From an uncultured Candidatus Bathyarchaeia archaeon (GTDB taxonomy: Archaea > Thermoproteota > Bathyarchaeia > Bathyarchaeales > Bathyarchaeaceae): 64,000 nucleotides of DNA. The translations under genes were made by a program, and so were the position numbers. Numbering within the stretch: the stretch's first letter is position 1; each line of letters opens with the position of its first letter. The stretch lies in the NCBI GenBank assembly GCA_964418675.1, contig CAYQMM010000002.1, forward strand, positions 196,875 through 260,874, written 5' to 3'. The notes beneath the pieces were generated by a model. That model searched no databases and was not told where the DNA came from. It worked only from the letters and a program-made list of their open reading frames with translations. Below are positions 21,088-59,571 of the stretch, one piece after another.

Positions 21088-21366
21088 TTAGCCTCCGACT
21101 ACTGCCGGAAGAATCAACACTTCGTCCCCATCGTTGAGTGGAGTGTTGAGCTTCTTAAGGAAGCGGATATCTTTACCGTTTATATAGATTCTGATATGCC
21201 TTCTCGGATTTCCTGCGCTATCAAGTATCTTTGTCTTGAACTCTTCACCGTGTTCCTCAATCAAAGAGTCAAGAACCTCCTTCAACGAAGAGCCTTCTGC
21301 CCCCACTTCCTTCTTTCCCAAGGCTGTAGCTAAAGTTGCGAAAACCCGTAAAGTTACTTTCGCCAC
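21088..21366 (-). CDS. MoaD/ThiS-family ubiquitin-like sulfur-carrier protein ending in Gly-Gly
   Basis: 92 aa. The C-terminus is ...DEVLILPAVVGG followed directly by the stop. Overlaps the ThrC-like gene by 13 nt and lies 7 nt upstream of the E1 gene. Confidence 0.85.
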   Translation of the reverse strand: MAKVTLRVFATLATALGKKEVGAEGSSLKEVLDSLIEEHGEEFKTKILDSAGNPRRHIRIYINGKDIRFLKKLNTPLNDGDEVLILPAVVGG

Positions 21367-38302: not shown

Positions 38303-40987
38303 ATGAAATTTTGGAAAAATAAATCGAAGATTACTGCTATTGCTTTTGTTCTGTTGCTATCCTTTGGTGTTATGTTTGTTGCTTTGCCTATCGTTGGTGC
38401 TCATGATCCTTCATGGCAGATTCCAACATATGCCTATCTCGGTGTTTCACCTAACCCCGTTGGCGTCGACCAAACTGTGTTCATTCTAATGTGGATTGAC
38501 AAGATTCCCCCGACAGCAGGGGGTATTGGCGGTGAAAGATGGGAAAACTTCAACATTGTAGTTACAAAACCTGACGACACCACCGAGGACCTTGGCTTAT
38601 TCACGTCCGACGCTACATCATCAACGTATACGCTATACACACCTGACCAAGTCGGCACATATACATTCAATTTCACATTTCCAGGACAGGTGGCAGACCT
38701 GTATGGTCCAACCGGAATACCTGGCATCCCTAGCGCCAATGAAAATGACACTTACTTAGCTAGCACTACAACTGAGACACTTACTGTTCAGGCAGACCCC
38801 GTGGCTGAGCCTCCAGCTTATCCGCTTCCAAGCAGGTTCTGGACGCGTCCCATAGAAGGACAGAACACTCCTTGGTCCAGCGTTGCATCAAACTGGCTGG
38901 GTTGGGGTAGTGGTCAAATTGTTGGAGGAGGAAATTGGGGTGGGGGTGGGGTTCAACCGGACGGCATTGCACCTAACAGCCCTCACATAATGTGGACAAA
39001 GCCGCTGCAGGATGGAGGTGTTGTCGGAGGAACTTATTCAATCGATGGCGTAGGCTACTATTCAGGGCTTTCATATGAAGGCAGATTCAACAATCCACTA
39101 GTCGTTGGCGGAAGGCTCTTCTACGACACACCACTGAGTGATAATCCTACTGCTGGACCATATGTAGCCGTAGATCTGACTACTGGAGAAACATTATGGA
39201 CAAGAGATGACATCTCACCATCATTTGGTCAACTCTACCTTTACGAATCATTTAACCAACACGGTGTCATCGGAGACGGCTACCTTTGGCAGACTCAAGG
39301 TAGGACGTGGAGAGCCATGGACCCACGCACTGGAGTCAATCTGTTCAACCTGACCAACGTTCCTTCTGGCACACCTGTATACAGTCCAAACGGGGAGATA
39401 CAACGTTACGTGCTTAACTATGCGGAACGCTCGCTGTCCTTGTGGACCTCAGCTGCACTACCAAATTCAAGTTTGGTATCGATACCCGGAACCGGAACCG
39501 ATGCTTACCAGTACAGACCTATCGGAAAGGAGGTTAATATGGAAAACAATACTCTGTGGAACGTGACAATACCGGATTTACCGGGTCTCGGAAATCCTGC
39601 CATTCTCAGCGTTATCCCTGATGATTTAGTATTTGGCACTTCCACAGCCTTCCCGCCATTCTTTGGATTTGGGACTCCAGATCCCTACACATTTTGGGCA
39701 ATAAATCTGAACGAATCAAAAGGTGACGTAGGTGAACTGTTGTGGATTCAGAATTATACCGCACCTTCAGGCAACCAAACTCTAGTGTTCTTGGGAACAC
39801 CGAATGTGGTAAACCGCAACCAACAAGTGGATGCAGTGAACCGCGTATTCTTTGCGACAGTTAAAGAGACTATGCAGTGGTATGGCTACGACCTCGACAC
39901 TGGCGAAATGTTGTGGGGTCCGATTGGAGATTTCAGAGACTTCCAGTACTATGGCACTACTTCAAACCCTCCGGCGCCAGGCTACGTCTATAATGGCAAG
40001 TTTTACGTTGCCGGTTACGGTGGAGAACTCCACTGTTACAATTCTAGGACTGGTGCTCTAGAGTGGGTATACAACAACACTAACAGCGGCGAGGAAACAC
40101 CTTGGGGTAATTATCCCCTCTTCGTGAGCACTTTTGCCGACGGAAAAATCTACCTGTTCAGCAGCGAACACTCTCCCAACTCACCACTATACAAGGGTTC
40201 AAGGATACGCGCCGTTAACGCTACAGATGGAACTGAAATATGGACTATGCTGGGCTGGTTTGCTAGCAGCAGTTTTGGTCAATTGGGCAGTCCAATCGCA
40301 GACGGCTACTACATATTCTTCAACATATACGACAATCAAATCTACTGCATCGGCAAGGGACCAAGCAAAACAACAGTCACTGCAGCACCAAAAGTTGTAT
40401 CCTCTGGGTCCAGCATAATAGTTGAAGGCACGGTGACTGATCAATCTGCTGGTGCTAAAAGGAAGGTAGAGAGCGGCGAGTTCAGTGTGGTGCCAGCCAT
40501 GGCTGATGAATACATGGGCGAATGGATGGAGTACGTGTACATGCAGAAGCCTATACCCGCAATGGCTCAAGGAGTTACAGTGCATCTATATGCTATTGAC
40601 CCCAACGGCAACTACCAAGACATAGGAGAAACTCACACCGATCAGTGGGGCAACTTCGGAAAGAGCTGGAAACCACCGGTCCCAGGCGATTATCTCATCA
40701 TAGCTGAATTTACTGGCACAGAATCTTACTGGCCCTCATCAGATTCAACCTATCTAGCAGTGAATCCAGCACCATCAGCCGGACAGCCAATGGAAACTGA
40801 AGAACCAACAACCCCAGCACCACCAACAACTGAAGAGCCATCAACCGCGCCACCAACAACTGAAGAGCCTACAGCAGTGCCGACTGAAGCACCTGTCATA
40901 ACCACAGAAGTGCTCATCATCGCAGCCGTTGGCGTAGCAGCCATCATAGGCGTCGGTGCCTACTGGGTACTCAGAAGACGAAAATAA
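38303..40987 (+). CDS. Large secreted cell-surface glycoprotein: signal peptide, PQQ-like beta-propeller repeats, Ig-like region, Pro/Thr linker, C-terminal TM anchor
   Basis: 894 aa. N-terminal signal-like ITAIAFVLLLSFGVMFVALPIVGA. Many N-x-S/T sequons. Repeated G-x-LW / Y-x-YD blade-like motifs. The C-terminus has PAPPTTEEPSTAPPTTEEP, then VLIIAAVGVAAIIGVGAYWVL and RRRK. Confidence 0.7.
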   Translation: MKFWKNKSKITAIAFVLLLSFGVMFVALPIVGAHDPSWQIPTYAYLGVSPNPVGVDQTVFILMWIDKIPPTAGGIGGERWENFNIVVTKPDDTTEDLGLFTSDATSSTYTLYTPDQVGTYTFNFTFPGQVADLYGPTGIPGIPSANENDTYLASTTTETLTVQADPVAEPPAYPLPSRFWTRPIEGQNTPWSSVASNWLGWGSGQIVGGGNWGGGGVQPDGIAPNSPHIMWTKPLQDGGVVGGTYSIDGVGYYSGLSYEGRFNNPLVVGGRLFYDTPLSDNPTAGPYVAVDLTTGETLWTRDDISPSFGQLYLYESFNQHGVIGDGYLWQTQGRTWRAMDPRTGVNLFNLTNVPSGTPVYSPNGEIQRYVLNYAERSLSLWTSAALPNSSLVSIPGTGTDAYQYRPIGKEVNMENNTLWNVTIPDLPGLGNPAILSVIPDDLVFGTSTAFPPFFGFGTPDPYTFWAINLNESKGDVGELLWIQNYTAPSGNQTLVFLGTPNVVNRNQQVDAVNRVFFATVKETMQWYGYDLDTGEMLWGPIGDFRDFQYYGTTSNPPAPGYVYNGKFYVAGYGGELHCYNSRTGALEWVYNNTNSGEETPWGNYPLFVSTFADGKIYLFSSEHSPNSPLYKGSRIRAVNATDGTEIWTMLGWFASSSFGQLGSPIADGYYIFFNIYDNQIYCIGKGPSKTTVTAAPKVVSSGSSIIVEGTVTDQSAGAKRKVESGEFSVVPAMADEYMGEWMEYVYMQKPIPAMAQGVTVHLYAIDPNGNYQDIGETHTDQWGNFGKSWKPPVPGDYLIIAEFTGTESYWPSSDSTYLAVNPAPSAGQPMETEEPTTPAPPTTEEPSTAPPTTEEPTAVPTEAPVITTEVLIIAAVGVAAIIGVGAYWVLRRRK
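40821..40870 (+). repeat. Two copies of CCACCAACAACTGAAGAGCC with a 30-bp period (the PPTTEEP linker repeat)
   Basis: Identical 20-mers at 40821-40840 and 40851-40870, inside the surface-protein ORF. Confidence 0.85.
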
Positions 40988-41005
40988 ACCATCAATTTCC
41001 CTCCC

Positions 41006-41013
41006 TTTTTTTT
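41006..41013 (+). terminator. T8 tract flanked by CTCCC/GGGGAG complementarity, 19 nt after the surface-protein stop
   Basis: TCCCTCCCTTTTTTTTATGGGGAG. Confidence 0.45.
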
Positions 41014-41247
41014 ATGGGGAGTAAAGCATCATCGGAAAATGGGGGCTGAGAAGGCTCCAGCATGGGAAAAATGAAACCTAACCAAAAGCAATAGCAGTAG
41101 TAGCCTTTGGAGTTTCATTTTTTTCTCCTCAATTGCCCGTGTGCGGAGCCTCAGCAAACCCTTTATTGACTAAAAATTGTTAAATATCCAGTTTTCCTTT
41201 CCTTTACTTACCTCAAAATCTCCATCATAATAGGAGAAAAGGGAAAG

Positions 41248-41904
41248 ATGGTTAAAAACAATGAATTTTCGCAGTTAACTGAGGCTCTTGTGGATAAGTC
41301 GCTGACGAAGGAGGAGCTTCTCATTAGGGTTAGACAGGACTTTAGCCTGCTTCCTTTCCTGCTCAGCGGTGTTCATTCCTCAAAAGCCGCTGTTAGATAT
41401 GGTTGTGCAAAAGTATTGATGGATTTAAGCGAAGAGAATCCGGAGAAACTGTATCCCCACCTGGATTTGTTCATTAATCTTTTAGACAGCAAATACAGAA
41501 TCTTAACGTGGAATGCCCTAGCTATCATTGCGAATCTGACCAGAGTTGATGCAGACAAGAAGTTTGATGCCGTCTTCGGCAAGTATTACAGCTTCTTAAG
41601 TAACGACTACATGGTCACAGTTGCGAACGTTGTTGGTAATTCTAGTAAGATTGCCCAAGCAAAACCATATCTTATACCTAAGATAACAGATGAACTGCTG
41701 AAAGTTGAAAGCATTTCTACGACCCCGCATCTAACAGAAGAGTGCAGAAGAGTCATAGCTGAAAAAACCATCAAGTCTCTAGATGTGTTTTTTGACGGAG
41801 TTGAACAGAAAGATAGAGTAATCTCCTTTGTTAAAGCGCATCTTGATAGCCCACGAAAAAGCCTGAGAGTAGCAGCAGAAAACTTTCTCAAGAAATGGGG
41901 CTAA
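41248..41904 (+). CDS. Hypothetical all-helical protein (HEAT/ARM-like repeats?)
   Basis: 218-aa ORF. Periodic helical-repeat appearance. No confident family. Confidence 0.5.
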   Translation: MVKNNEFSQLTEALVDKSLTKEELLIRVRQDFSLLPFLLSGVHSSKAAVRYGCAKVLMDLSEENPEKLYPHLDLFINLLDSKYRILTWNALAIIANLTRVDADKKFDAVFGKYYSFLSNDYMVTVANVVGNSSKIAQAKPYLIPKITDELLKVESISTTPHLTEECRRVIAEKTIKSLDVFFDGVEQKDRVISFVKAHLDSPRKSLRVAAENFLKKWG

Positions 41905-42220
41905 TCAACCTTCTGCCTTAATGTTCATAGTGTATCTTTGTTTTACATGTCTACAAAACCGAATTCTAGATTCGGAAGATTTTTTATTTTAGTATACGTA
42001 ACTCTCTATAGTTTGGTGCCGAGTCTCCAGATGAAAATTAAACATTCCTTTGAGCTTATGCTCAAACAGCAGGGTTGCTCTGAGAAGGCGATAAAAGAAT
42101 TGTGGAAATGGTATAATCCCTCAGAGAAAAGAGGAGTTGCAAGTTTCTAATTTAGGGTTGTTTTGTGAGGAGAAGTTTTTAATGGCGAAGTTGTAACTAT
42201 ACTATCCAGAGTGGCTCAAA

Positions 42221-42961
42221 ATGGCTCAGCAACTTCATTCAACTTCCATTAAACTAGCCCTTTCAGCCTTCTTCACGGCTTTGGTGTTTGTAGCCACCGT
42301 GATTTTCAGCAGCTATGTTCCTCAAACAACAGGTTTCTTCAATATCGGTGAAACTATGGTTTATACCACTGCCTTACTTTTTGGTCCTTTGGTTGGTGCT
42401 TTCGCTGGGGGGGTTGGTTCTATGCTTGCAGACTTATTCTTGAATTATCCCCTTTTTGCTCCTGCTACTCTTATCATAAAGGGCTGTGAAGGAGCAATAG
42501 TTGGTTTTCTTAGTCGCAAGAAACTTGGGTTAAATTCTAAACTTCAGTGGAGGATTTTCACGTTTGTTGTTGGTTTAGTTGCTGGTCTTCTGTTGGCGGG
42601 TGTGGGTTCAATCTATTATAGTGGGTCTGTTGAGTTGTATATTGGTATTCCTCCGCCTCTAACTCCCAATTTTGTGTTGTCTGTTCCGCCCCTGTTTTGG
42701 TATGGTTTAGGAGCCCTGATTACTGTGCTTATTGCTTTGATGGGTTTTGTGTTTGATCCGGAGTTTGGTTGGCTTGTTCTTACGATTATTGTTGGTGGTT
42801 TGGTGATGGTTTCGGGGTATTTTCTTTATGAGCAGTTCTTTCTTGGTGTGGCGGCGGTGGCGGAGATTCCTATTAATGTGGGGCAGATGAGTGTTGGTCT
42901 TATCGTTTCGATTCCTATTGTGCGGGCTGTGTGGCGTTATCTTCCTTCCCTCAGAACTTAG
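42221..42961 (+). CDS. ECF-transporter S-component-like membrane protein
   Basis: 246 aa, about six TM segments. FFNIGETMVYTTALLFGPLVGAFAGGVGSMLADL resembles substrate-capture S components. Confidence 0.6.
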   Translation: MAQQLHSTSIKLALSAFFTALVFVATVIFSSYVPQTTGFFNIGETMVYTTALLFGPLVGAFAGGVGSMLADLFLNYPLFAPATLIIKGCEGAIVGFLSRKKLGLNSKLQWRIFTFVVGLVAGLLLAGVGSIYYSGSVELYIGIPPPLTPNFVLSVPPLFWYGLGALITVLIALMGFVFDPEFGWLVLTIIVGGLVMVSGYFLYEQFFLGVAAVAEIPINVGQMSVGLIVSIPIVRAVWRYLPSLRT

Positions 42962-44325
42962 TTTTTTGTCTTTTTGAGGGCGTGTATATTTTTTAGTCTC
43001 GGTGTGTAGATGTGTTGGGGTGGGCTGGTGGTGTCAATGGAGCCTAAGAGGTTGGAGAGGGTTCTGGTGGTTTCTAAGGCTGACCCATCTGAGGTTAATG
43101 GGGTTTTGGTTGCTGGGGGCTTCAGGGTTGTTGAGGAGAATCCTGATTTTGTTGTTTGTTTTGGGGGTGATGGTACGGTTTTGTTTGGGGAGAGGAGTTT
43201 CCCTGGGGTTCCTAAGCTTATTGTGAAGACCTCGAGGGTTTGGAGGGAGTGGGATTATACTCTGGAGAACTTGAATGATGTTTTGTCTGGGATTAGGGCG
43301 GGGGATTTTCGGTTGCGTGGGGAGATGAAGTTGGTGGCGGAGGCGGGGGGTGTGAGGTTGGTGGGGTTGAATGAGGTTCAGGTTCATTTGAAGTTGCCGA
43401 TTTCTGCTGTGAGGTTTAGTGTTTCTGTTGATGGGAGGGAGTTTGGTGGTTTGGTGGGTGATGGGGTTGTTGTTGCTACGCCTTTTGGTTCAACGGGGTA
43501 TTATGAGGCGACTGGAGGAGAAAGATTCGAGAAGGGCATTGGTATTTCCTTTAACAACTTGCACAACAGGAAGATAGGGAGTTTTGTGGTTTCGGAGGAT
43601 TCTGTGGTGAAGTTGAGGGTGAGGAGGGGTCCTGCGTGGCTTTTGGCGGATAATAATGAGAATTTTGTTGAGTTGAATGGTGGGGATTCTGCGGTTGTGC
43701 GGAGGGCTGATGGTGTGGCGAGGTTCATTGTTGTTTCTGGGAGGTGAAGGGTGATTGTTGAGGGTTGGGCACCGGGGGGCTAGGGCTTATGAGCCTGAGA
43801 ATACGTTGCGGAGTTTTGGGAGGGCTATTGAGTTGGGGGTTGATGCGGTGGAGTTGGATGTGAGGAGGACGGCGGATGGGGAGGTTGTTGTTGTTCATGA
43901 TGCTAAGGTGGATCGGGTTACGGATGGGAGGGGTTTGGTGGGGGAGCTTACGTTGGAGGAGATTAAGGGGTTCACTGCTGAGAAGGGGGAGAAGATTCCT
44001 ACTTTGGGGGAGGCGTTGGATTTCTTGAAGGGAAAGGTGAAGGTGTTGATAGAGCTGAAGGAAAGTGGCATTGAAGAGCAGGTTGTGGATTTGATTCGTG
44101 AGAGGGGGATGGTGGAGTCTGTGATTGTTGTCTCTTTTTTGGAGGAGGCTCTTGGGAGGGTGAGGGAGTTGGATGAGGGGGTGGCGACGGGCTTGATTTA
44201 TGTTCGGTACAAGAAGCCTGTTGAGGCGGCTTTGGAGTTGGGAGCGGAGTATCTGCTTCCGTTGTATAGGTTTACGCATTCTGCGGATGTGAGGAAGGCT
44301 CATGAGGCTGGGTTAAAGGTGATCG
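42380..44325. other. Tract with a G+T-rich plus strand (A- and C-depleted); the right edge is sharp and falls inside the GDPD ORF
   Basis: Hand count of 43021-43080: G26 T17 A10 C7. 35 of the first 40 codons from 43010 end in G or T. The intergenic stretch 42962-43009 shares the bias. Confidence 0.8.
43037..43747 (+). CDS. nadK: NAD kinase
   Basis: The ORF track starts at 43010. ATG 43037 (MEPKRLERVLVV) gives a typical N-terminus. GGDGTVL and ATPFGSTGY motifs. Confidence 0.85.
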   Translation: MEPKRLERVLVVSKADPSEVNGVLVAGGFRVVEENPDFVVCFGGDGTVLFGERSFPGVPKLIVKTSRVWREWDYTLENLNDVLSGIRAGDFRLRGEMKLVAEAGGVRLVGLNEVQVHLKLPISAVRFSVSVDGREFGGLVGDGVVVATPFGSTGYYEATGGERFEKGIGISFNNLHNRKIGSFVVSEDSVVKLRVRRGPAWLLADNNENFVELNGGDSAVVRRADGVARFIVVSGR

Positions 44326-44417
44326 TCTGGACCATCAACACCCCAGAAGAAGTTAATGAATACATGAAGAAGGGCGTAGACGGCATAGCAACAGACAAAC
44401 CAGACATCTTCAAATAA
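43755..44417 (+). CDS. Glycerophosphodiester phosphodiesterase
   Basis: 220 aa with a TTG start. GHRGA, EPENTLRSF, ELDVRRTADGEVVVVHD. Confidence 0.85.
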   Translation: MLRVGHRGARAYEPENTLRSFGRAIELGVDAVELDVRRTADGEVVVVHDAKVDRVTDGRGLVGELTLEEIKGFTAEKGEKIPTLGEALDFLKGKVKVLIELKESGIEEQVVDLIRERGMVESVIVVSFLEEALGRVRELDEGVATGLIYVRYKKPVEAALELGAEYLLPLYRFTHSADVRKAHEAGLKVIVWTINTPEEVNEYMKKGVDGIATDKPDIFK

Positions 44418-44423
44418 TAAAAA

Positions 44424-44472
44424 CAGAAAAAAGCTAGTTTTCAACAATGAAGTATTATTAGGCTCCAAATAG
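44424..44472 (+). repeat. Left copy of the 48/49-bp inverted repeat (39-bp perfect core at 44428-44466)
   Basis: CAGAAAAAAGCTAGTTTTCAACAATGAAGTATTATTAGGCTCCAAATAG equals the reverse complement of 59504-59551, apart from one extra A and one A/T mismatch. Confidence 0.95.
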
Positions 44473-44509
44473 CTCATGTGAAAAGAGCTAAAAAGGTTCG
44501 TTTTTTAAA

Positions 44510-45475
44510 CTATAATATGCATTCCTGTCTTCGGATAAACAAAAAAATGCTATTGATAGCGGTTAAAGTCACAAGGAAAACCTCAATTGGGAGGTCACTA
44601 GACACATCCCAACTTTGATTATTAATTTCAGTATCCGTTGTATGTTTGAACGCATTTCTCATTTGACCGACAAATTGGATGAAACCAAGTTGTTTCTTGG
44701 TAATCTTTCCAGCTGACTTTAATCTGTTACCTATCTCTATGAAGCCTCTTGTTCTCGTTATGTTAACAGATTCATCATTTGCACATTTCTTGAGAAAGTC
44801 TTCAAAAACATCTGCCGTTTCTTTTATGCAAGAAATTGGCGCTGATTCAAACTTCATGCCAGCTGAAATGAGTTTTTCCTTTAAATCTCCTAAATATTGA
44901 ACAACTGCATCATCTAATTGATTTGCAACATAAGCCTCAATCTGCGCTTCATCATTTAGAGTGTTCTGGATTGATTTGAAAACGTTAAGTATTTCTGGTT
45001 GCTCTTTGAAAATAGGTTCAACACCTCTCTCTGTTTCTGCAAACACTTGTGAAAAACTCCCAAGTTCAAGAAGAGTATTTTTAAGAATTGTTATGCTTCC
45101 TGTAACGTTGAAAACTGTTTTGGTTTTGATTGTTGCACGGGTTACATCTTCCCCCCTGAGAATAAGACCGAAAAAGAATTTGAAAGGCTTGTATTGCATA
45201 AGCAAAAATTTCAAAATAGCTTTTTTATCATTGGCTTTCGCGTTTGAGAGCAAACGGGCAAATGGAAGTGTTGCTTTATAGAGTCCCCCATCATTTTTAA
45301 CAAGCTTAAGTTGCATTGCCATTTTTAATGCCTTTTCAGCTGTATCTGAATCAATATCGGAATATTGAACAATTTCGGGTAGCGTTGCCCTATCTCGTAA
45401 AACAATAACAGCCTCTACAACATCTAGAAGATTTCTATGGTTCACTTCAACAGCTTCATAGTTGCTGGAACTCAT
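44510..45475 (-). CDS. Hypothetical protein: N-terminal winged-helix-like region plus a C-terminal helical domain with a HEPN-type R-x4-H motif (QMRNAFKH); candidate RNase/toxin
   Basis: 321-aa ORF in an AT-rich island. ATGA overlap with the upstream ORF. Motif read directly from the translation. Confidence 0.45.
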   Translation of the reverse strand: MSSSNYEAVEVNHRNLLDVVEAVIVLRDRATLPEIVQYSDIDSDTAEKALKMAMQLKLVKNDGGLYKATLPFARLLSNAKANDKKAILKFLLMQYKPFKFFFGLILRGEDVTRATIKTKTVFNVTGSITILKNTLLELGSFSQVFAETERGVEPIFKEQPEILNVFKSIQNTLNDEAQIEAYVANQLDDAVVQYLGDLKEKLISAGMKFESAPISCIKETADVFEDFLKKCANDESVNITRTRGFIEIGNRLKSAGKITKKQLGFIQFVGQMRNAFKHTTDTEINNQSWDVSSDLPIEVFLVTLTAINSIFLFIRRQECIL

Positions 45476-46257
45476 TCCGTTGCTTCCCCACGTTTTTCAG
45501 AATGAATCAAATAGTTCCTAATCTTCCTAATAGCTTCAGCAATTTCCTGCAAGTCAGACTCTTCTGGGTGTATTGGAACCTGAAAATCCAGTCGAATCTG
45601 AATTTGCATTGGAATTTCCTTTTTTTCTAAAACTCTATATTTTTGGAGTTGTAGCTGTTTTGTTGTAACCTCGGTTCCACTCAATTTTGCTGTAACTTCT
45701 GTCCTAGGTGTCTCCCTCAGTTTCCCAGCAAGTTCAGTGGCAGTGATGTTATCACCCTCTCTTTCAACTAATTTAGAAGTAACGAGAATGTCAATTACTG
45801 CTTGTGCTCCAATGGTCGATCTTGGGTCCTTTTTTGTAACCTTTGCCCGTTTTCCAATTTCATCCCTTAACTGATAATTAGAAATACTGCCTCGGGTTTT
45901 TATCGAAAATACTAAACTTTTCAAAAATTCGTTTTCATAGATTAATGTTCTAAATGCAGAAGAAATCCCTTCCTCGTCACCGTACTCAATTGAGTAAGCT
46001 AGGTCTATGCCTTCCTTGGTTAATGAATAAGCAGTACCTTCTTTTTCTACTATGCCCATGAACTCAATAGCCTTAATATTCTGGCTAACCATTGCAGGGT
46101 GTCTTCCGATATATGTTGACACAGTCTTTGTGGAAACTGGTTGCTTCTCTGCACCAGCATTCAAGAAGCCTTTGATTATGCTTAAAAAAAGGTCATAACT
46201 CCCCCGAGGTAATTCTATCAGTTCTTCGGTTGACAATATGTCTCCCTCATTAATCAA
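45472..46257 (-). CDS. Hypothetical protein with a MarR-like winged helix (possibly two wH units); candidate regulator/partner of the HEPN-like protein
   Basis: 261-aa ORF. VSTKTVSTYIGRHPAMVSQNIKAIEFMGIVEKEGTAYSLTKEG looks like a wHTH. The C-terminus has IRKIRNYLIHS. Confidence 0.45.
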   Translation of the reverse strand: MINEGDILSTEELIELPRGSYDLFLSIIKGFLNAGAEKQPVSTKTVSTYIGRHPAMVSQNIKAIEFMGIVEKEGTAYSLTKEGIDLAYSIEYGDEEGISSAFRTLIYENEFLKSLVFSIKTRGSISNYQLRDEIGKRAKVTKKDPRSTIGAQAVIDILVTSKLVEREGDNITATELAGKLRETPRTEVTAKLSGTEVTTKQLQLQKYRVLEKKEIPMQIQIRLDFQVPIHPEESDLQEIAEAIRKIRNYLIHSEKRGEATE

Positions 46258-46489
46258 TGCATAGCATGTCTTTAATTCTGCTCTTTAGTGTTTCGGTGTA
46301 ATTATATTGATTCATTCGAAACTTTTTTGTTGGATGCATGAACCCTGCCTTGAAGTTTTAGCTATTACTTAATTAGCGAGATCATTACTTTCCTTGTTTA
46401 TTGTGACGTAATAGAAAGTAGCGGGGAAAAGGCGAGAGTATCAGAAAAATGAAGAAACTACATAATTTCATATCTGTAGAACTGTGTTG

Positions 46490-47701
46490 TTACCAGATTG
46501 TTATTTTTCCTTTGATTAGTTGTTGGCAGAAGTTTTCTATGTTTGCCAGTTCAGCGTCTATCACGTCGATTATCCGCTTCTCCACACTCTTCTCCAACGC
46601 GCCGCCACCATCCATAACCACCTGAGCCGCAGCAATCGCAGGCTGATCAATCGGCTTACCAATCCGACTCAACAACCAAACACAAACCTCAGCCGCCTCA
46701 GGCACCTCATCACAAACCCGCCGAGCAATCCTATGACTCAAAGCATTGTAAATCTTCCCCACATGACTAACCGGATTCTTCCCAGCCGCAGCCTCAGTCC
46801 CAATCGGACGATTCAAAGAAATAACACCATTCACCTTATTCCCCCGCCCCACCTGACCAGAATCCGCACCATCCGCACTCGTACCCAAAACAGTCAAATA
46901 CACACCATCCACACCCCGACCCTCAACATCCAAAGTATTCAAACTCACAAAATGCTTCTCAAAACGCCCCTTCCCCTCAACAAACTTGCGGACGTCCTCC
47001 AGCATCGCCGCCTTCTTCTCCATATAATCCCGCTCGCCAGATACAAACCTGTCAACAAAAGCCATAGCGATAGTTAAGTCAAGGCATTCCCCATACCTGA
47101 AACCCATAACCTTCACATCCTCCCCAGCCGCAGGAAACCGATCCTTAAACCCTTTCGAATTCACGTACCTCTCAGTCTCCAAAACCGTATTCTCAACCCT
47201 ACTCAAAGGAGCATAACCCACAGCCGCACTAGTATCATTAGCACCAAACATACACACCTTCCTCCTGAAAATGTCAGTAAGCCCCTGACTACCCGGCTTC
47301 AACTCCACCTGATACCTCATATGCACATCAGGATCAACAAACCGCAAATTCTTCTTCAACCAATCCTTAGCCGTCTCAACAGCAATCTCCCCCACAGGAA
47401 TCTTCTTCCCATCAGCCTCAAAAGTCGCCCGATCACCAAAAATAAGAAGCATTGGCTCATTCACAACACCCCCACCAAACCGGCACTCAACCTCACCCGC
47501 AACCAACAACGACTTATCAGCATTATGATGCAAAATCGCCCCAAACTCATCCAAATACGCCTTACTCAAACCCACAGAAACCTGATCCATAATCGCATCA
47601 CACATAGAATCAGGATGCCCAACACCCTTCCGCTCAACAATCTCAATCTGCTGCTTCTCAAGAGGAATCCGCCTCGAACCAGACACCATAATATTCCGCA
47701 T
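46490..47701 (-). CDS. metK: Archaeal-type S-adenosylmethionine synthetase
   Basis: The ORF track starts at 47728. The internal ATG 47701 gives MRNIMVSG...IEIVERKGVGHPDSMCDAI, the canonical archaeal MAT N-terminus. Confidence 0.88.
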   Translation of the reverse strand: MRNIMVSGSRRIPLEKQQIEIVERKGVGHPDSMCDAIMDQVSVGLSKAYLDEFGAILHHNADKSLLVAGEVECRFGGGVVNEPMLLIFGDRATFEADGKKIPVGEIAVETAKDWLKKNLRFVDPDVHMRYQVELKPGSQGLTDIFRRKVCMFGANDTSAAVGYAPLSRVENTVLETERYVNSKGFKDRFPAAGEDVKVMGFRYGECLDLTIAMAFVDRFVSGERDYMEKKAAMLEDVRKFVEGKGRFEKHFVSLNTLDVEGRGVDGVYLTVLGTSADGADSGQVGRGNKVNGVISLNRPIGTEAAAGKNPVSHVGKIYNALSHRIARRVCDEVPEAAEVCVWLLSRIGKPIDQPAIAAAQVVMDGGGALEKSVEKRIIDVIDAELANIENFCQQLIKGKITIW

Positions 47702-49380
47702 AGAAACACCTTGCCGAATGGCTAACACAAATAATTCATATATACCTTACGATACAACGAGCACCAAAACCCAACACACAACACCTATTCCATCTCGCAC
47801 CACCAAAACTTTTCCACCCCCAATTTTTGCCATAAAATTGTAGCAAACATTGATAAACAAGACCACTCCATACTGCAAAATATGCTAGAACATTTAAAAG
47901 AAGCCTGCGGAGTCTTCGGAGCACAAGACCACCAAAACAAACCCATATTCCCCTACATCTACTGGGGACTACGCGCCCAAAACCACCGCGGACACCAATC
48001 CCACGGCTTCCTCACCTACGACAGCGGAGCATTCCACAGCCACAAAGGACTAGACCTAGTCCCAAAAATAAGAAACGAAGAAATCAACGAATGGCTCACA
48101 AAACTCCCCGGACCAACCGGACTAGGACACGTAAGATACAGCACCTCAGGCGGAACCGACCAACAATCCCTCGTAAAAAGCACCCAACCCATCCTAGAAA
48201 CATACGGAACCAAACAAATCGCCCTAGCCTTCAACGGCAACGTCGTCAACACCCCCCAAATAATCCAAGAAATAAGAGAAGACTACCCCAACTTCCGCTT
48301 CAACTACGACGCAGAACTAATCTCCAGAAAACTCCTAAGACTCGGAAAAAAAGACGACCTAGCCTCATCCATCAAAAGATGCATGAAAGAAATCGAAGGC
48401 GCCTTCTCCGTAGCAGGAATAACCGAAAAAGGAGAACTCTTCGCCTTCAAAGACCCACGCGGAATAAGACCCCTATGCTGCGGCTGCAGCAGAGACAGAA
48501 AAACTTGCGTAGTCTCATCAGAAACCGTGGGCCTAGACATAAACGACTTCCAACTAGATTTTGAAATAAACCCCGGAGAACTCGTAACCGCCACAAAAGA
48601 CGGATTCAACCGGGAACAACTGGTAAACGGAGAAAAAAAGGCATTATGCGCCTTCGAATTCGCCTACTTCTCCAGACCAGACTCAAAACTAGGAGACAAG
48701 CACGTTTACGAAGTAAGAGAAGAATTCGGAAGAAACTTCGCTTGGGAATACCCAGAAACCACCAGCAAAGTAGACATAATCCTATCCATGCCCGAAACAG
48801 GCAACGACGCCGCCTTCGGATTCCACGAACTAACACGCATAAGATGGGAAAGAGCCTCAAGAAGACACAGATACGTAGCAGAAAGAGCCTTCATCCTCCT
48901 ACCCGAAGAACGATACACAACAATAAACAGAAAAATCAACATCGTCGACCACAAACTAATCGGAAAAAACGTCGCAGTAGTAGATGACAGCATCGTCAGA
49001 GGCGACACCACCAAAGTCGTAGTGAAAAAACTCCGCGAAATGGGCGCAAAAAAAATCTACCTCTTCATCACCTTCCCCCGAATAATAGGCCCCTGCTTCT
49101 ACGGAGTCGACATGGCAACCTACCGAGAACTCATAGGATCACGATACGAACCCGAAGAGATAGCAGAGATAGTGGGCGCCGACGCCGTAAACTACCAATC
49201 AGTAGAAGGACTTGTCAAAGCCACCGGCATGAACAAAGACGAACTATGCCTAGGATGCATCACAGGCAAATATCCCACGCCCATGGCACAGAGACTGGCA
49301 GACGAAATGAAAGAAAGATTCGCGAACGGCTACAACGAACAAGGAAGAATATACGAGACTGCCATCAACTAACCCAGAAT
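46570..49380. other. Tract with an A+C-rich plus strand (G- and T-depleted) spanning most of metK (minus strand), the divergent intergenic region and all of purF (plus strand)
   Basis: Hand counts: 47401-47460 A19 C19 G8 T14; 48091-48150 A20 C20 G13 T7. 37 of the first 40 purF codons end in A or C. The intergenic stretch 47729-47881 has only about 10 G. Confidence 0.8.
47882..49372 (+). CDS. purF: Amidophosphoribosyltransferase
   Basis: 496 aa. Propeptide then CGVFG. Ntn-amidotransferase and PRTase (VVDDSIVRGDT) motifs. Confidence 0.9.
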   Translation: MLEHLKEACGVFGAQDHQNKPIFPYIYWGLRAQNHRGHQSHGFLTYDSGAFHSHKGLDLVPKIRNEEINEWLTKLPGPTGLGHVRYSTSGGTDQQSLVKSTQPILETYGTKQIALAFNGNVVNTPQIIQEIREDYPNFRFNYDAELISRKLLRLGKKDDLASSIKRCMKEIEGAFSVAGITEKGELFAFKDPRGIRPLCCGCSRDRKTCVVSSETVGLDINDFQLDFEINPGELVTATKDGFNREQLVNGEKKALCAFEFAYFSRPDSKLGDKHVYEVREEFGRNFAWEYPETTSKVDIILSMPETGNDAAFGFHELTRIRWERASRRHRYVAERAFILLPEERYTTINRKINIVDHKLIGKNVAVVDDSIVRGDTTKVVVKKLREMGAKKIYLFITFPRIIGPCFYGVDMATYRELIGSRYEPEEIAEIVGADAVNYQSVEGLVKATGMNKDELCLGCITGKYPTPMAQRLADEMKERFANGYNEQGRIYETAIN

Positions 49381-49394
49381 GCGGGTGACCCCGG

Positions 49395-50804
49395 ATGGAA
49401 AAAGTTGGCATCCTAGTGGTTTCGTACGGCTCAAGAGCAGTTGCCATGATAGACACTTTCCTCCGCAGCGAAGAATACGCCCCAGAAATCTACGTTGTGG
49501 ACAAACAGAAAAACCCCTTCAACGTAAAACGGGCTGAGAGACACATTGTTATTTCTGACTTCAATTTAAAGGAAATTGTGAGGTTCGCCAAAAGGCACGA
49601 AGACAGAATAGACTTTGGGATAGTTGGCCCTGAAAAGCCCATCATTGCTGGCGTGCGAGACCTCGTCGAGAAGGAAACACGTATACCAATGATATGCCCC
49701 ACCAAGAGATATGCCATCGAAGGCAGCAAGGTGGCTCAGCGGCAGCTGTTCCAGAGGGTTGCCCCCGAAGTAAACCCGAAATTCAAGGTTTTTGACCCGA
49801 AGGATTACGGCAGCGTGGGGCATGTTAAGAAGAGCGTTTACGCTTGGCTTAAAGAACTCAACAACGAGGTGGCGGTGAAGCCTGACAGAGCAACTGCTGG
49901 AAAGGGGGTCGGCGTTTGGGGTGACCATTTCAGCACTCGCGAAGAGGTTTTCGAGCATTTTCTCTCCAACTACCAGTATGGTCCAGTGATAATTGAGGAG
50001 AAAGTTGAGGGAGAAGAGTCCAGTTTCCAAACGTTCTGCGATGGAAAGCGTTTGGTTCCCTTGCCTGAGACCCGTGACTACAAGAGAGCCTTTGATGGCG
50101 ATAAGGGTCCAAACACTGGGGGGATGGGTTCCTACAAAGACTCCGGAGATATTCTTCCATTCATGAATTCAAGGGATAGGGAGAAAGAAATTGAACTTGT
50201 TAACAGGGTTTTCAGGGAACTGAAGGGAAAAGGAAGCAATCCCGAGTTGCGAGGCATCCCCTTCTACTCCGCCTTCATCCACACCAGCAAAGGACCAAAA
50301 ATCTTGGAGAATAACAGTCGACCCGGAGACCCAGAGATAATGAACCTTCTTCCCGTCCTGAAGGACGACTTCGTTGAGTTTTGCTATAAAATGTTGGATG
50401 GAAACCTGAGGAAGGTCGATTTTAGGGGGATGGCGACTGTTGTGACCTACAAGGTTCCGCCCAGCTACGGTGGCTACTCAACAGAGTTTCCTGAACGAGT
50501 GGAGAAGAATGAAGTAGATACTCCTGTAGATTTGTCGGGAGCACAAAAACTGGTTGAGAAAGAGGGGGAGAGAATAAGGGTTTATCCGGGGTCTTTGGAG
50601 TTGAGGGATAGAGAGAATTTTGCCCTTGGGTCTCGTGCCGTCTGTGTCGTCGGCATTGGAGATGACATTCAGGAGGCTAGGGAAAGCTCCTTGGAGGGCA
50701 TAGGGGCGATTAAAGGCGGAGCTCTTTGGAACAGAGATGATATTGCCGCAGCAGAACATATTAAGAAAAGCGTGCGACACATGGAAAAGCTGAGGAGGCG
50801 CTGA
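49395..50804 (+). CDS. purD: Phosphoribosylamine-glycine ligase
   Basis: 469 aa. ATP-grasp features (GKGVGVWG, GPNTGGMGSY, ENNSRPGDPE). Confidence 0.88.
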   Translation: MEKVGILVVSYGSRAVAMIDTFLRSEEYAPEIYVVDKQKNPFNVKRAERHIVISDFNLKEIVRFAKRHEDRIDFGIVGPEKPIIAGVRDLVEKETRIPMICPTKRYAIEGSKVAQRQLFQRVAPEVNPKFKVFDPKDYGSVGHVKKSVYAWLKELNNEVAVKPDRATAGKGVGVWGDHFSTREEVFEHFLSNYQYGPVIIEEKVEGEESSFQTFCDGKRLVPLPETRDYKRAFDGDKGPNTGGMGSYKDSGDILPFMNSRDREKEIELVNRVFRELKGKGSNPELRGIPFYSAFIHTSKGPKILENNSRPGDPEIMNLLPVLKDDFVEFCYKMLDGNLRKVDFRGMATVVTYKVPPSYGGYSTEFPERVEKNEVDTPVDLSGAQKLVEKEGERIRVYPGSLELRDRENFALGSRAVCVVGIGDDIQEARESSLEGIGAIKGGALWNRDDIAAAEHIKKSVRHMEKLRRR

Positions 50805-59503: not shown

Positions 59504-59551
59504 CTATTAGGAGCCTAATAATACTTCATTGTTGAAAACTAGCTTTTTCTG
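59504..59551 (-). repeat. Right copy of the 48/49-bp inverted repeat (39-bp perfect core at 59510-59548)
   Basis: The reverse complement reads CAGAAAAAGCTAGTTTTCAACAATGAAGTATTATTAGGCTCCTAATAG. Confidence 0.95.
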
Positions 59552-59571
59552 GAAAAACAGGCTGACGGGCT

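What the first reader, a model, noticed from the sequence alone, without database searches (positions are those of the whole stretch)
42380..44325. Extreme keto (G+T) strand bias tract ending abruptly inside an ORF
From the second half of the ECF-S gene through nadK and most of the GDPD gene, the plus strand is strongly depleted in A and C (hand count of 43021-43080: G26 T17 A10 C7). Synonymous positions are almost saturated: 35 of the first 40 codons from 43010 end in G or T. The short intergenic spacers share the bias. Protein motifs remain intact (GGDGTVL, HRGA...ENT), so the changes are essentially synonymous. The bias stops sharply near 44325, about 90 nt before the GDPD stop, and the last ~30 codons have ordinary composition. 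Loss of both A and C on one strand is the signature expected from A-to-G plus C-to-T transitions on a strand that is repeatedly single-stranded, as in the heavy strand of vertebrate mtDNA. It is also what a chimeric assembly or a recombination tract from a very differently biased donor would produce.
Basis: seen in the sequence. Interest (0 to 1): 0.7.

Follow-up and report, generated by a model that had tools for sequence, protein, structure and literature searches.

The report
Mirror-image strand-biased mutation tracts
On both sides of a gene-insertion hot spot in a Bathyarchaeia chromosome, almost every freely changeable A and C on one DNA strand has become G or T, in mirror-image orientation and in at least five related genomes. 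This looks like the evolutionary footprint of one strand being repeatedly exposed and used as the only template from a fixed site.

Summary
Tract 1 (42380-44325) is 71.7% G+T on the plus strand. A mirror tract 2 (46576 to about 49550) is G+T-rich on the minus strand. The rest of the window is 50.0% G+T. Third codon positions are 83-91% G/T in nadK, GDPD and metK, and 93% A/C in purF, which lies antisense to the G+T-rich strand. Non-coding spacers and amino-acid composition are biased too. This rules out codon selection and transcription direction as causes.

An independent assembly and orthologous loci in four other Bathyarchaeia genomes show the same paired tracts. Sister lineages show weaker versions. 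This rules out a chimera or a recent transfer.

The "ordinary" last 27-31 codons of GDPD and metK are unconverted ancestral sequence. Between the two tract ends lies a hot spot with different inserted genes in different genomes, or none.

Only transitions are asymmetric, about 10-25:1. Transversion differences are normal. Conversion was gradual.

The best-supported mechanism is inferred, not shown: recurrent breaks or nicks at the tract ends, 5'->3' resection, and deamination of the persisting 3'-ended strand. The main rival is a replication origin or fork barrier. I know of no described local, saturating asymmetry of this kind in a prokaryotic chromosome.

The parts
42380..44325 (+). Tract 1. 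The plus strand is G+T-rich (71.7%). It ramps up over 42380-42580, then is saturated up to a sharp inner end ('head') at about 44325.
46576..49550 (-). Tract 2, the mirror image. The minus strand is G+T-rich (plus strand A+C 67.3% over 46576-49372). It has a sharp head at about 46576, is saturated through metK, the intergenic region and all of purF, and fades in the first ~50 codons of purD.
42221..42961 (+). ECF-type riboflavin transporter S component. Third positions are 76% G/T, and the bias begins inside the gene.
   Evidence: Pfam PF07155, 2.9e-27
43028..43747 (+). NAD-kinase-like gene (ORF from 43010). Third positions are 90-91% G/T.
   Evidence: Pfam PF20143, 4.9e-10
43755..44417 (+). 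Glycerophosphodiester phosphodiesterase (GDPD). It is G/T-saturated up to codon ~189.
   Evidence: Pfam PF03009, 2.8e-42
44326..44417 (+). Unconverted last ~31 codons of GDPD. They end in A/C, as in unbiased relatives.
44418..46489 (.). Variable segment between the two heads. GC is 0.38-0.40 and there is no strand bias. It holds two minus-strand ORFs (44510-45475, 321 aa; 45472-46257, 261 aa with an N-terminal winged helix). The segment is absent in L005 and replaced by other genes in L006 and L009.
44424..44472 (+). Copy of a ~50-nt dispersed element (CAGAAAAAAGCTAGTTTTCAACAAT...TTATTAGGCTCC) that follows many stop codons in Bathyarchaeia. A second copy lies at 59507-59555 on the minus strand. 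It is not specific to the tracts.
46490..46575 (-). Unconverted last ~28 codons of metK. The codons match those of unbiased relatives. The step at codon ~376 is shared by WIN, L005, L006, L009, L011 and L013.
46490..47701 (-). Archaeal S-adenosylmethionine synthetase (metK). Third positions are 89% G/T on its coding (minus) strand.
   Evidence: Pfam PF01941, 2.9e-159
47702..47881 (.). Divergent metK-purF intergenic region. It is 71% G+T on the minus strand (p = 3e-8). The same region is 68-75% G+T in six related genomes.
47882..49372 (+). Amidophosphoribosyltransferase (purF), which lies antisense to the G+T-rich strand. 93% of its codons end in A/C. Only 24 non-Met/Trp codons of 496 end in G/T.
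43492..43570 (+). Island of unconverted codons in nadK (codons ~163-183). It sits at the same position in L005 and L006.
47030..47100 (-). Island of partly unconverted codons in metK (codons ~201-222). It is specific to this genome.

Best explanation
Shown: the two tracts are the product of a long-lasting transition bias at the level of the DNA strand, anchored at fixed sites. On the strand whose 3' end points to the metK/GDPD junction, A->G and C->T have outrun their reversals by about 10-25 to 1. This happened in place, over the time in which a whole clade of Bathyarchaeia diverged. It acts regardless of gene direction, coding status or codon position.

Inferred mechanism: the tract ends ('heads'), about 80-90 nt inside the 3' ends of metK and GDPD, are sites of recurrent DNA breaks or nicks.
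1. Each event is followed by 5'->3' resection over 1-4 kb.
2. The 3'-ended strand persists as single-stranded DNA, where C deaminates to U and A to hypoxanthine.
3. That strand then serves as the only template when the resected partner is rebuilt.
4. Lesions on the persisting strand are therefore fixed as C->T and A->G, while lesions on the partner strand are thrown away with it.

This model raises the forward rate and suppresses the reverse rate. It gives a plateau that ends where resection usually stops. It leaves the DNA nearest the break (repaired from a sister copy) and newly inserted DNA unconverted.
For: 1. Polarity. The plus strand loses C and A on the left, and loses G and T on the right. 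This is the order expected for bidirectional 5'->3' resection at a break: top-strand C mutated on the left, G on the right, as shown experimentally in yeast (PMC6786661, read).

2. The bias follows the DNA strand, not the gene.
- purF is 93% A/C-ending while the adjacent metK is 89% G/T-ending.
- The divergent promoter region between them is biased throughout.
- In L090 a 4-kb arm holds five genes on both strands, and all follow the strand.

3. Mutational nature.
- Non-coding spacers are biased.
- The amino-acid K-type/M-type ratio of GDPD (K-type = residues whose codons have G/T at positions 1-2: G, V, W, F, C; M-type = A/C at positions 1-2: K, N, T, H, Q, P) is 1.2-1.37, against 0.55-0.8 in most homologues.
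- metK protein divergence relative to purD rises from 0.68 to 1.01 with the bias.
- Only transitions are asymmetric. Two-fold codons give G:A 128:5 and T:C 136:25; purF gives A:G 84:6 and C:T 111:5; the control purD gives 41:51 and 61:37. Transversion differences equal the control.

4. The bias arose in place and is old.
- The same paired tracts occur in L004, L005, L006 and L009.
- Weaker versions with the same head occur in L011 and L013.
- More distant relatives lack it.

5. The heads are places where DNA is broken and rejoined. Between them lies nothing (L005), two unknown ORFs (this window; a different pair of ORFs in L006), or a TIR defence gene plus an integrase (L009). In L009 the metK head is joined to the head of a different biased operon, hbd-DUF35-thiolase. 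Elsewhere GDPD abuts cdc6 (L090) and hbd abuts a cooC-like gene (L088).

6. The shape is a plateau of 1.7-2.8 kb followed by a ramp. This fits a resection-length distribution better than an exponential decay.
Against: - No break, nick or single-stranded DNA has been observed. All of that is inference from geometry.
- The step at metK codon ~376 is only 3-5 codons wide and is shared by genomes whose metK proteins are about 80% identical. Probabilistic strand invasion or trimming does not predict such sharpness.
- The three different inserts between the heads show no bias at all. Either all are recent, or each head has its own anchor rather than sharing one central break.
- In L088 only one side of the junction is biased, so a symmetric two-ended break is not general.
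- Residual sites are nested between genomes. The process is therefore slow and cumulative, unlike the single-event clusters known from yeast and cancers.
- A->G asymmetry is at least as strong as C->T, although free cytosine deaminates much faster than adenine (own knowledge).
- Archaeal family-B polymerases stall at template U and hypoxanthine (PMC2794169, abstract as listed). A polymerase that copies them must therefore be assumed.
- Conserved unconverted islands are not explained.
Confidence: 0.4

Rival explanations
1. Replication-anchored asymmetry. The junction, or each head, is a replication origin or a polar fork barrier. At an origin, the leading-strand template stays single-stranded, or the first kilobases are made by a low-fidelity primase-polymerase. 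At a barrier, the nascent lagging strand is resected behind the arrested fork. Either way the same strand is always the exposed or persisting one for a few kb.
For: - The predicted polarity is the same as observed. The bias is independent of gene direction.
- In L090 the syntenic ecfS-nadK-GDPD operon is followed directly by orc1/cdc6, and a two-armed skew switch lies within about 0.5 kb of the end of cdc6.
- Several other Bathyarchaeia lineages have strong tracts in or next to cdc6: third-position G/T .13 in L160 and L162.21 in L164.73 in L153, and .87 in the gene after cdc6 in L142.
- PMC12999951 reports that Haloferax Ori3 sits at a local maximum of third-position and non-coding cumulative GC skew. 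That is the same inverted polarity.
Against: - No cdc6 homologue lies in the 64-kb window or within 10 kb in L004-L009.
- No ORB-like repeat (archaeal origin-recognition box) was found in the candidate origin regions.
- The polarity relative to cdc6 differs between lineages.
- A 2-4 kb reach is short for fork-direction effects, and the window shows no wider replication skew.
- Enrichment near cdc6 rests on few, non-independent lineages, in loci that were chosen because they contain cdc6.
Confidence: 0.25
2. Strand-specific biased repair or gene conversion in a recombination hot spot of a polyploid archaeon. Heteroduplex with a fixed strand make-up is corrected with a base-specific bias, giving a fixation bias rather than a mutation bias.
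For: - The forward rate is only moderately raised while reversal is strongly suppressed, and residual sites are nested. This is what a fixation bias of about 4Nes = 3 would give.
- The tract length of 1-4 kb resembles gene-conversion tracts (own knowledge).
- The junction is an insertion and rearrangement hot spot.
Against: To enrich G and T on one strand, the repair would have to excise the A+C-rich strand at G.T mismatches but the G+T-rich strand at A.C mismatches. No known repair system behaves this way (own knowledge). Known biased conversion enriches G+C on both strands, whereas GC content here is nearly unchanged.
Confidence: 0.08
3. Transcription-associated asymmetry. The non-template strand is exposed in transcription bubbles or R-loops, or the template strand is preferentially repaired. 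G-rich RNA may stabilise R-loops and reinforce the effect.
For: - For ecfS-nadK-GDPD, metK, hbd-DUF35-thiolase and a moaA-like gene, the G+T-rich strand is the coding strand.
- The unconverted ends occur only in the last gene of a transcription unit.
- The coding-strand excess of G+T matches the asymmetry described for mammalian genes (own knowledge: Green et al. 2003).
Against: - purF, the first part of purD, h166, h214 and jab in L090, and cdc6 in L160, L162 and L164 carry the bias on the template strand.
- The bias runs unbroken through a divergent promoter region, upstream of the metK TATA box.
- The tract stops about 80-90 nt before the stop codon, although transcription must continue past it.
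Confidence: 0.07
4. Selection on the nucleic acid or on decoding. Examples are choice of wobble-decoded G/U-ending codons to slow translation, structure-free mRNA or DNA, or avoidance of palindromes, promoters or nuclease sites.
For: - G/T-ending and A/C-ending codons are decoded differently in archaea (own knowledge).
- Background genes of the window prefer A/C-ending codons.
- The unconverted islands are conserved in position.
Against: - Neighbouring genes have opposite codon choice, set by the DNA strand.
- Non-coding DNA is biased.
- Amino-acid composition is dragged along and protein divergence is accelerated.
- Boundaries lie inside genes.
- A highly expressed gene (metK) lost its ancestral preferred codons.
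Confidence: 0.06
5. Foreign origin or artefact. This would be a recombination tract from a donor with extreme strand bias, a chimeric assembly, or a sequencing-chemistry artefact.
Against: - An independent assembly gives identical proteins, and both inner edges lie inside contigs.
- At least six assemblies from other samples show orthologous tracts at 80-92% protein identity.
- The bias is graded across the phylogeny with nested residual sites.
- Reading frames and Pfam domains are intact.
Confidence: 0.03

Closest known systems
Heavy-strand compositional asymmetry of vertebrate mitochondrial DNA (deamination of the displaced, single-stranded parental strand)
   Same: Both deplete A and C together on one strand through A->G and C->T. 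Both saturate synonymous sites, spill over into amino-acid composition, and are independent of gene direction (the mtDNA facts are own knowledge).
   Different: The mtDNA bias covers a whole small replicon and grades with the time spent single-stranded between two origins. Here the tracts are 2-4 kb islands in a chromosome that is otherwise unskewed. They have sharp heads and can pair in mirror image.
Strand-coordinated mutation clusters flanking double-strand breaks (yeast models; kataegis in cancers), PMC6786661
   Same: The mutated strand switches at one point with the polarity expected from 5'->3' resection: top-strand C on the left, G on the right. The reach is kilobases, and the cause is base damage in long single-stranded DNA.
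   Different: Those clusters arise in single events, are sparse, and are driven by APOBEC or added mutagens acting on C. Here the pattern is fixed over evolutionary time, saturating, cumulative (nested residual sites), involves A as strongly as C, and recurs at the same site in many species.
Replication-associated GC/TA skew of bacterial (and some archaeal) chromosomes
   Same: One strand carries an excess of G and T, with a sign change at a defined point.
   Different: Replication skew spans whole replichores and is typically a few per cent (PMC8941118 abstract, as listed). Here the GC skew reaches 0.63 over 1 kb and vanishes within 3 kb. If the centre were an origin, the polarity would be opposite to the bacterial rule. 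Archaeal genomes are reported to have little mutational skew (PMC12999951).
Transcription-associated mutational asymmetry (non-template strand C->T in bacteria; A->G excess and G+T-rich coding strands in mammals)
   Same: The base changes are the same, and in most affected genes the coding strand is the G+T-rich one.
   Different: The sign does not follow transcription in purF, purD, cdc6 or the L090 arm. The bias crosses promoters and ends before the stop codon.
Diversity-generating retroelements (mutagenic retrohoming)
   Same: Both are polar tracts at the 3' end of a gene, with a sharp 3' limit and a variable 5' limit (own knowledge, compared).
   Different: DGRs change only template adenines to any base, need a template repeat and a reverse transcriptase, act on about 100-150 bp, and diversify proteins. 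Here both A and C change, by transitions, over kilobases, mostly at synonymous sites. No long repeat partner was found in the region searched, 44200-46700.

Membership tests
ssDNA-deamination strand asymmetry (mtDNA heavy-strand type) | A and C are both depleted on the same strand, at synonymous and non-coding sites | tested here: met
   Tract 1 is A .165 and C .118, against .269 and .231 elsewhere. Spacers are biased. Third positions are 83-95% converted.
ssDNA-deamination strand asymmetry (mtDNA heavy-strand type) | The asymmetry is carried by transitions (A->G, C->T), with transversions unaffected | tested here: met
   Two-fold codons give G:A 128:5 and T:C 136:25, with the reverse in purF. 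Transversion differences at four-fold sites are .14-.27 in the tracts and .12-.31 in purD. Transition differences are .02-.13 against .15-.27.
ssDNA-deamination strand asymmetry (mtDNA heavy-strand type) | The bias grades with the time the strand spends single-stranded | tested here: inconclusive
   The profile is a plateau followed by a ramp of 0.2-1 kb. Saturation hides any gradient within the plateau.
ssDNA-deamination strand asymmetry (mtDNA heavy-strand type) | The strand is physically single-stranded in vivo | not testable with these tools
   This needs ssDNA, break or replication mapping in cells.
DSB-resection strand-coordinated clusters | The damaged strand switches once, with top-strand C on the left and G on the right | tested here: met
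   GC skew is +0.63 on the left and -0.49 on the right. The rule is stated in PMC6786661.
DSB-resection strand-coordinated clusters | The mutations of a cluster arise together in one repair event | tested here: not met
   Residual unconverted sites are nested between genomes (purF: 20 of WIN's 24 are also among L005's 63, with 3.1 expected). The bias is graded across clades. Accumulation was therefore gradual.
DSB-resection strand-coordinated clusters | A break lies at the switch point | not testable with these tools
   There is only indirect support: variable insertions and different gene junctions at the heads.
Replication-associated strand skew | The skew extends over replichores and changes sign only at the origin and terminus | tested here: not met
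   The skew is confined to about 2-3 kb on each side. The other 54 kb of the window are G+T .500, with third positions following gene direction only.
Replication-associated strand skew | The switch coincides with an origin (orc1/cdc6, ORB repeats) or a terminus | tested here: inconclusive
   There is no cdc6 in the window or in L004-L009. However, cdc6 directly follows GDPD in L090, next to a similar switch. No ORB-like repeats were found.
Transcription-associated mutational asymmetry | The sign of the bias follows the direction of transcription | tested here: not met
   purF (plus strand) is A/C-saturated beside metK (minus strand), which is G/T-saturated, on one continuous strand-level tract. 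The L090 arm holds genes on both strands. cdc6 in L160 and L162 is .13.
Translational codon-usage bias | The bias is confined to synonymous codon choice, with the same direction in co-expressed genes | tested here: not met
   Intergenic DNA is biased. Amino-acid composition is shifted. Neighbouring genes have opposite codon choice. Boundaries lie inside genes.
Diversity-generating retroelement target | Adenine-specific substitutions relative to a template repeat | tested here: not met
   Both A and C are depleted, by transitions. No long repeat partner was found in 44200-46700. Whether a reverse transcriptase is present was not examined.

The most novel reading that the evidence does not exclude
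Bathyarchaeia chromosomes contain fixed sites (fragile sites, fork barriers or origins) next to which one DNA strand acts for millions of generations as the persisting 'master' template, while its partner is repeatedly destroyed and re-made. This writes a saturating G+T signature a few kilobases long into housekeeping genes and even into their proteins. If so, such tracts are natural long-term recorders of where, and with what polarity, single-stranded DNA forms in uncultured archaea. Break sites, barriers or origins could then be read from sequence alone. The tracts would also mark preferred points of insertion and rearrangement.
Probability: 0.4. Interest if true: 0.85.

Novelty: new variant of a known kind. 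Interest (0 to 1): 0.78.

Why it matters
Strand-asymmetric mutation is usually a weak effect that spans a whole replicon, and archaeal chromosomes are reported to show almost none.

Here a local process overrides codon preference in a highly expressed gene. It converts about 95% of free sites, shifts amino-acid composition, and speeds up protein evolution. It does so with a defined start point and polarity, and it recurs at orthologous sites across species.

If the cause is recurrent breakage or fork arrest, three things follow:
- It is the first evolutionary-scale counterpart of the strand-coordinated clusters known from yeast and cancer genomes.
- It gives a sequence-only handle on DNA transactions in organisms that are barely culturable.
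- It links such sites to hot spots where defence and other accessory genes are inserted.

On the practical side, such tracts can mislead gene callers (they create long spurious antisense ORFs), codon-usage-based tests for horizontal transfer, phylogenies, and binning.

Tried and rejected
- Assembly chimera: rejected.
- Two-colour chemistry artefact (A->T, C->G): rejected, because proteins stay intact and the changes are transitions.
- att-site explanation for the unconverted gene ends (the ends supplied by an integrating element): no direct repeat of the metK or GDPD end lies at the far side of the insert, and L005 without any insert has the same ends.
- 'Reversed' bias at the gene ends: shown to be the ancestral codon preference.
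- The ~50-nt 3' element as the determinant of the tracts: rejected. It follows many unbiased genes in many lineages. It has no Rfam match and no significant fold.
- Known RNA families in 41000-50500: none.
- Polarising substitutions at four-fold sites with outgroups: blurred by saturation.
- First- and second-position changes: the direction fits in metK and purF, but the control purD also shifts, so the test is confounded.
- General hypermutation: rejected, because transversions are normal.
- Fast turnover of residual sites: rejected.
- cdc6 near the window locus: not found.
- ORB-like repeats upstream of cdc6 in L162 and L164: none convincing.
- Function of the inserted ORFs: no hits in Pfam, NCBIfam, PHROGs or PADLOC beyond weak winged-helix matches. 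There are no PDB sequence matches and no viral relatives. The AlphaFold model of the 321-aa ORF is unusable (pLDDT 37). The model of the 261-aa ORF shows only a generic winged helix. Its family has 324 cluster representatives, all unannotated.
- Literature searches for local extreme keto or GC skew in archaea: no precedent found.


Full report
**1. The observation**

Positions 43021-43080 hold G26 T17 A10 C7, and 35 of the first 40 codons from 43010 end in G or T.

- Over 42380-44325 the plus strand is 71.7% G+T. The other 54 kb of the window are 50.0%.
- In 200-nt windows the keto skew of the window has mean 0.00 and sd 0.157. The tract stays at +0.31 to +0.58 for 2 kb.
- The 1-kb window 43001-44000 has GC skew +0.625 and AT skew -0.292.
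- Third codon positions ending in G/T.76 in the ECF-S gene, with the bias starting inside it at about 42380-42580.91 in the NAD-kinase-like gene.83 in GDPD. Runs reach 73 consecutive codons.
- The other 52 ORFs of the window lie between .27 and .60.
- In 2.0 Mb of related archaeal DNA, 1481 ORFs have mean .476 and sd .095. Only 17 are as extreme, and nearly all of those are orthologues of the genes discussed here.

**2.

A second tract lies at 46576 to about 49550 and is the mirror image of the first. Here the plus strand is 67.3% A+C, so the minus strand is G+T-rich.

The second tract covers four features:
- metK on the minus strand: 89% of codons end in G/T.
- The 180-nt divergent intergenic region: 71% G+T on the minus strand, p = 3e-8.
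- The whole of purF on the plus strand: 93% of codons end in A/C. Of its 36 G/T-ending codons, 12 are obligatory Met or Trp.
- The first ~50 codons of purD.

The bias therefore belongs to a DNA strand. It does not follow the coding strand or the direction of transcription.

Both tracts end sharply on the inner side, at about 44325 and about 46576. Each end lies 27-31 codons before the stop of one of the two convergent genes. Both tracts fade gradually on the outer side.

Between the inner ends lie 2.2 kb of low-GC, unbiased DNA with two ORFs of unknown function.

**3. Not an artefact and not a recent import**

The organism is a member of Bathyarchaeia, close to Candidatus Bathyarchaeum.

- An independent Logan assembly of run SRR14802574 encodes identical ECF-S, GDPD, metK and purF proteins. 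It has both inner boundaries inside contigs.
- Its two contigs both end at about 44445, inside a ~50-nt sequence that is repeated at 59.5 kb. The repeat explains the break.
- Orthologous loci from other samples show the same pair of tracts. These are L004 (JGI 3300056879), L005 (complete genome CP070820.1), L006 (GCA_964623205.1) and L009 (CAZUDX010000001.1), with metK 80-92% identical.
- Sister lineages L011, L013 and L019 have a weaker, patchier version over purD-purF-metK. In L011 and L013 the tract has the same end point at metK codon ~373-376.
- More distant relatives, including Ca. Bathyarchaeum tardum, have none.

The tracts therefore evolved in place over a long time.

**4. The inner ends and the centre**

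The last ~27 codons of metK in the biased genomes carry the same A/C-ending codons as in unbiased relatives. These ends are simply unconverted. The same holds for GDPD.

What lies between the two ends differs between genomes:
- L005: nothing. The spacer is 100 nt, and about 280 bp lie between the two heads.
- L004: a ~350-nt AT-rich spacer.
- This window: two unknown ORFs. L006 carries a different pair of ORFs.
- L009: a TIR/ThsB-like defence gene plus an integrase.

In L009 the right-hand partner is not GDPD. It is another operon, hbd-DUF35-thiolase, which is equally G/T-saturated on its coding strand and has ~22 unconverted terminal codons.

- In a close relative of L009 (L088) that operon is just as biased but abuts an unbiased cooC-like gene.
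- In the genome of L005 the same operon sits elsewhere and is only patchily biased.
- In L090, a more distant lineage, the syntenic ecfS-nadK-GDPD operon is followed by orc1/cdc6.

The tract heads are thus points where different DNA has been joined or inserted.

**5. Nature of the bias**

It is a transition bias.
- In the G/T-coded genes, Lys/Glu/Gln codons are G:A = 128:5, and Asp/Asn/His/Tyr/Phe/Cys codons are T:C = 136:25.
- In purF the ratios are A:G = 84:6 and C:T = 111:5.
- The control purD gives 41:51 and 61:37.
- Allowing for the preference for C-ending codons, both A->G and C->T on the G+T-rich strand exceed their reversals by about 10-25 fold.

It is not general hypermutation. Pairwise transversion differences at four-fold sites are the same in the tracts (.14-.27) as in purD (.12-.31). 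Transition differences are depleted (.02-.13 against .15-.27).

Conversion was slow and reversal is rare. The few unconverted sites are largely shared and nested between genomes. In purF, 20 of this window's 24 are among L005's 63, where 3.1 would be expected by chance.

The pressure reaches the proteins.
- The ratio of K-type residues (G, V, W, F, C; codons with G/T at positions 1-2) to M-type residues (K, N, T, H, Q, P; A/C at positions 1-2) in GDPD is 1.2-1.37 in the biased clade. It is 0.55-0.8 in most homologues.
- metK protein divergence relative to purD rises from 0.68 in unbiased pairs to 1.01 in strongly biased pairs.

**6. What this excludes**

- Codon or translational selection. Non-coding DNA is biased, amino acids are dragged along, neighbouring genes have opposite codon choice, and boundaries lie inside genes.
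- Transcription-coupled asymmetry. purF, the start of purD and the promoter region upstream of the metK TATA box carry the bias on the 'wrong' strand. In L090 a 4-kb arm contains five genes on both strands that all follow the DNA strand. In L160 and L162 cdc6 itself is A/C-saturated.
- Ordinary replication skew. It spans replichores and is weak. Here the effect is confined to 2-4 kb in an otherwise unskewed region. Archaeal chromosomes are reported to have little mutational skew (PMC12999951).

**7. Most likely mechanism (inferred)**

The G+T-rich strands are the ones whose 3' ends point to the junction. These are exactly the strands left single-stranded by 5'->3' resection of a break there.

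In yeast, damage to such resected DNA gives clusters with top-strand C mutated on the left and G on the right of the break (PMC6786661). The window shows the same order.

I propose the following steps:
1. The heads are sites of recurrent breaks or nicks.
2. After each event the 5'-ended strand is degraded for 1-4 kb and re-made from the persisting 3'-ended strand.
3. That strand has meanwhile been exposed to deamination, C to U and A to hypoxanthine.
4. Lesions on the persisting strand become fixed, and lesions on the discarded strand are erased.

The model accounts for:
- the raised forward rate and the suppressed reverse rate;
- the independence from genes;
- the plateau-plus-ramp shape;
- the lack of bias in newly inserted DNA;
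- the role of the heads as insertion and rearrangement points.

Its weaknesses are:
- There is no direct evidence for breaks.
- The step in metK is very sharp and conserved.
- L088 is biased on one side only.
- The inserts are wholly unbiased.
- The A->G component is strong.
- Archaeal family-B polymerases stall at deaminated bases (PMC2794169, abstract as listed).
- The conserved unconverted islands are unexplained.

I put this mechanism at about 0.4.

**8. Main rival**

The anchor could instead be a replication origin or a polar fork barrier.
- At an origin, the leading-strand template is exposed, or the first kilobases are made by an error-prone enzyme.
- At a barrier, the nascent lagging strand is resected behind an arrested fork.
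Both predict the same polarity.

In favour:
- GDPD is adjacent to orc1/cdc6 in L090, and a two-armed switch lies within about 0.5 kb of the end of cdc6.
- Strong tracts lie in or next to cdc6 in several other lineages.
- Haloferax Ori3 sits at a maximum of third-position cumulative GC skew.

Against:
- There is no cdc6 near the locus in this clade.
- No origin-recognition-box (ORB)-like repeats were found.
- The polarity relative to cdc6 is inconsistent.
- The reach is short.

I put this at about 0.25. Biased repair or conversion (0.08), transcription (0.07), selection (0.06) and a foreign origin or artefact (0.03) follow.

**9. Comparison with known systems, and novelty**

The process works like the deamination asymmetry of the mtDNA heavy strand, and like resection-associated strand-coordinated clusters. 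It is not a member of either class as defined:
- It is local rather than replicon-wide.
- It is cumulative rather than a single event.
- It involves A as much as C.

Searches of the literature held here found no description of local, saturating keto skew in archaeal or bacterial chromosomes. I classify it as a new variant of a known kind, strand-asymmetric mutation through single-strandedness. The phenomenon itself is well supported. The mechanism remains open and could be settled with read-depth profiles, variant spectra and break or ssDNA mapping.

Noticed in passing
window 44424-44472 (+) and 59507-59555 (-); also L005 11232-11278, L009 13397-13443, L087 9217-9255, L088 11203-11241 and 5909-5947, and about 40 further copies in other loci: A ~50-nt element is conserved across many Bathyarchaeia lineages, with consensus roughly TTTTTCAGRAAAAAGCTAGTTTTCAACAAT-N7-9-TATTAGGCTCCTAATATG. 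It sits just downstream of stop codons, in the orientation of the gene. It has no Rfam match and no significant fold. It has an A-run, a short palindrome and a T-run, so it may be a bidirectional terminator or a protein-binding site. The Logan contigs break inside it.
   Followed up: partly
L160 7675-8850, L162 6222-7397, L164 9980-11161 and 12478-13449, L142 8305-9769, L153 9995-11935, L159 3479-3985, L090 7000-16000: In several other Bathyarchaeia lineages the orc1/cdc6 gene or its immediate neighbours (hth, moaC, moaB-like, moaA-like) carry strong third-position strand-bias tracts. Values are .13 in L160 and L162, .21 in L164, and .73-.87 in L153, L090 and L142. The polarity differs between lineages. 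L090 shows a two-armed switch just downstream of cdc6.
   Followed up: partly
L009 11272-13296: The segment between metK and the biased hbd operon carries a TIR/ThsB-like defence gene (PADLOC PDC-S66, 1.6e-62) and a tyrosine integrase (PHROG 216, 1.4e-10). This marks the junction as an integration site for mobile defence cargo.
   Followed up: partly
window 45472-46257 (-) and 44510-45475 (-): These are the two ORFs of the insert. The 261-aa protein has a confidently modelled N-terminal winged helix and belongs to an unannotated family with 324 cluster representatives. The 321-aa protein has no detectable relatives in any library and could not be modelled.
   Followed up: partly
window 43034-43387 (-), 43725-44303 (-), 46520-47077 (+), 47321-47725 (+), 48091-48564 (+), 48646-48987 (+): The biased tracts generate long spurious antisense ORFs, because an A+C-only third position leaves few stop codons. 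Their translations are rich in P, N, Q, H, T and R. These could be miscalled as genes.
   Followed up: no
window 40651-41000: This stretch is A+C-rich (keto skew about -0.33). It is the Thr/Pro/Glu-rich low-complexity linker near the C-terminus of the 894-aa secreted or anchored protein (38303-40987). It is a protein-composition effect, unrelated to the tracts.
   Followed up: no
window 21354-22613, 23498-24658, 25618-26661: These genes have a moderate preference for A/C-ending codons (coding-strand third-position G/T .27-.31). This produces the weaker skew signals at 24.0-24.5 kb and 26.4-26.8 kb. It appears to be the normal codon preference of this genome, not a tract.
   Followed up: no
L019 10850-11212: In L019 the last ~120 codons of metK are unbiased while the rest of metK and purF are biased. 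The downstream neighbourhood also differs. This suggests replacement of the 3' third of the gene by recombination.
   Followed up: no
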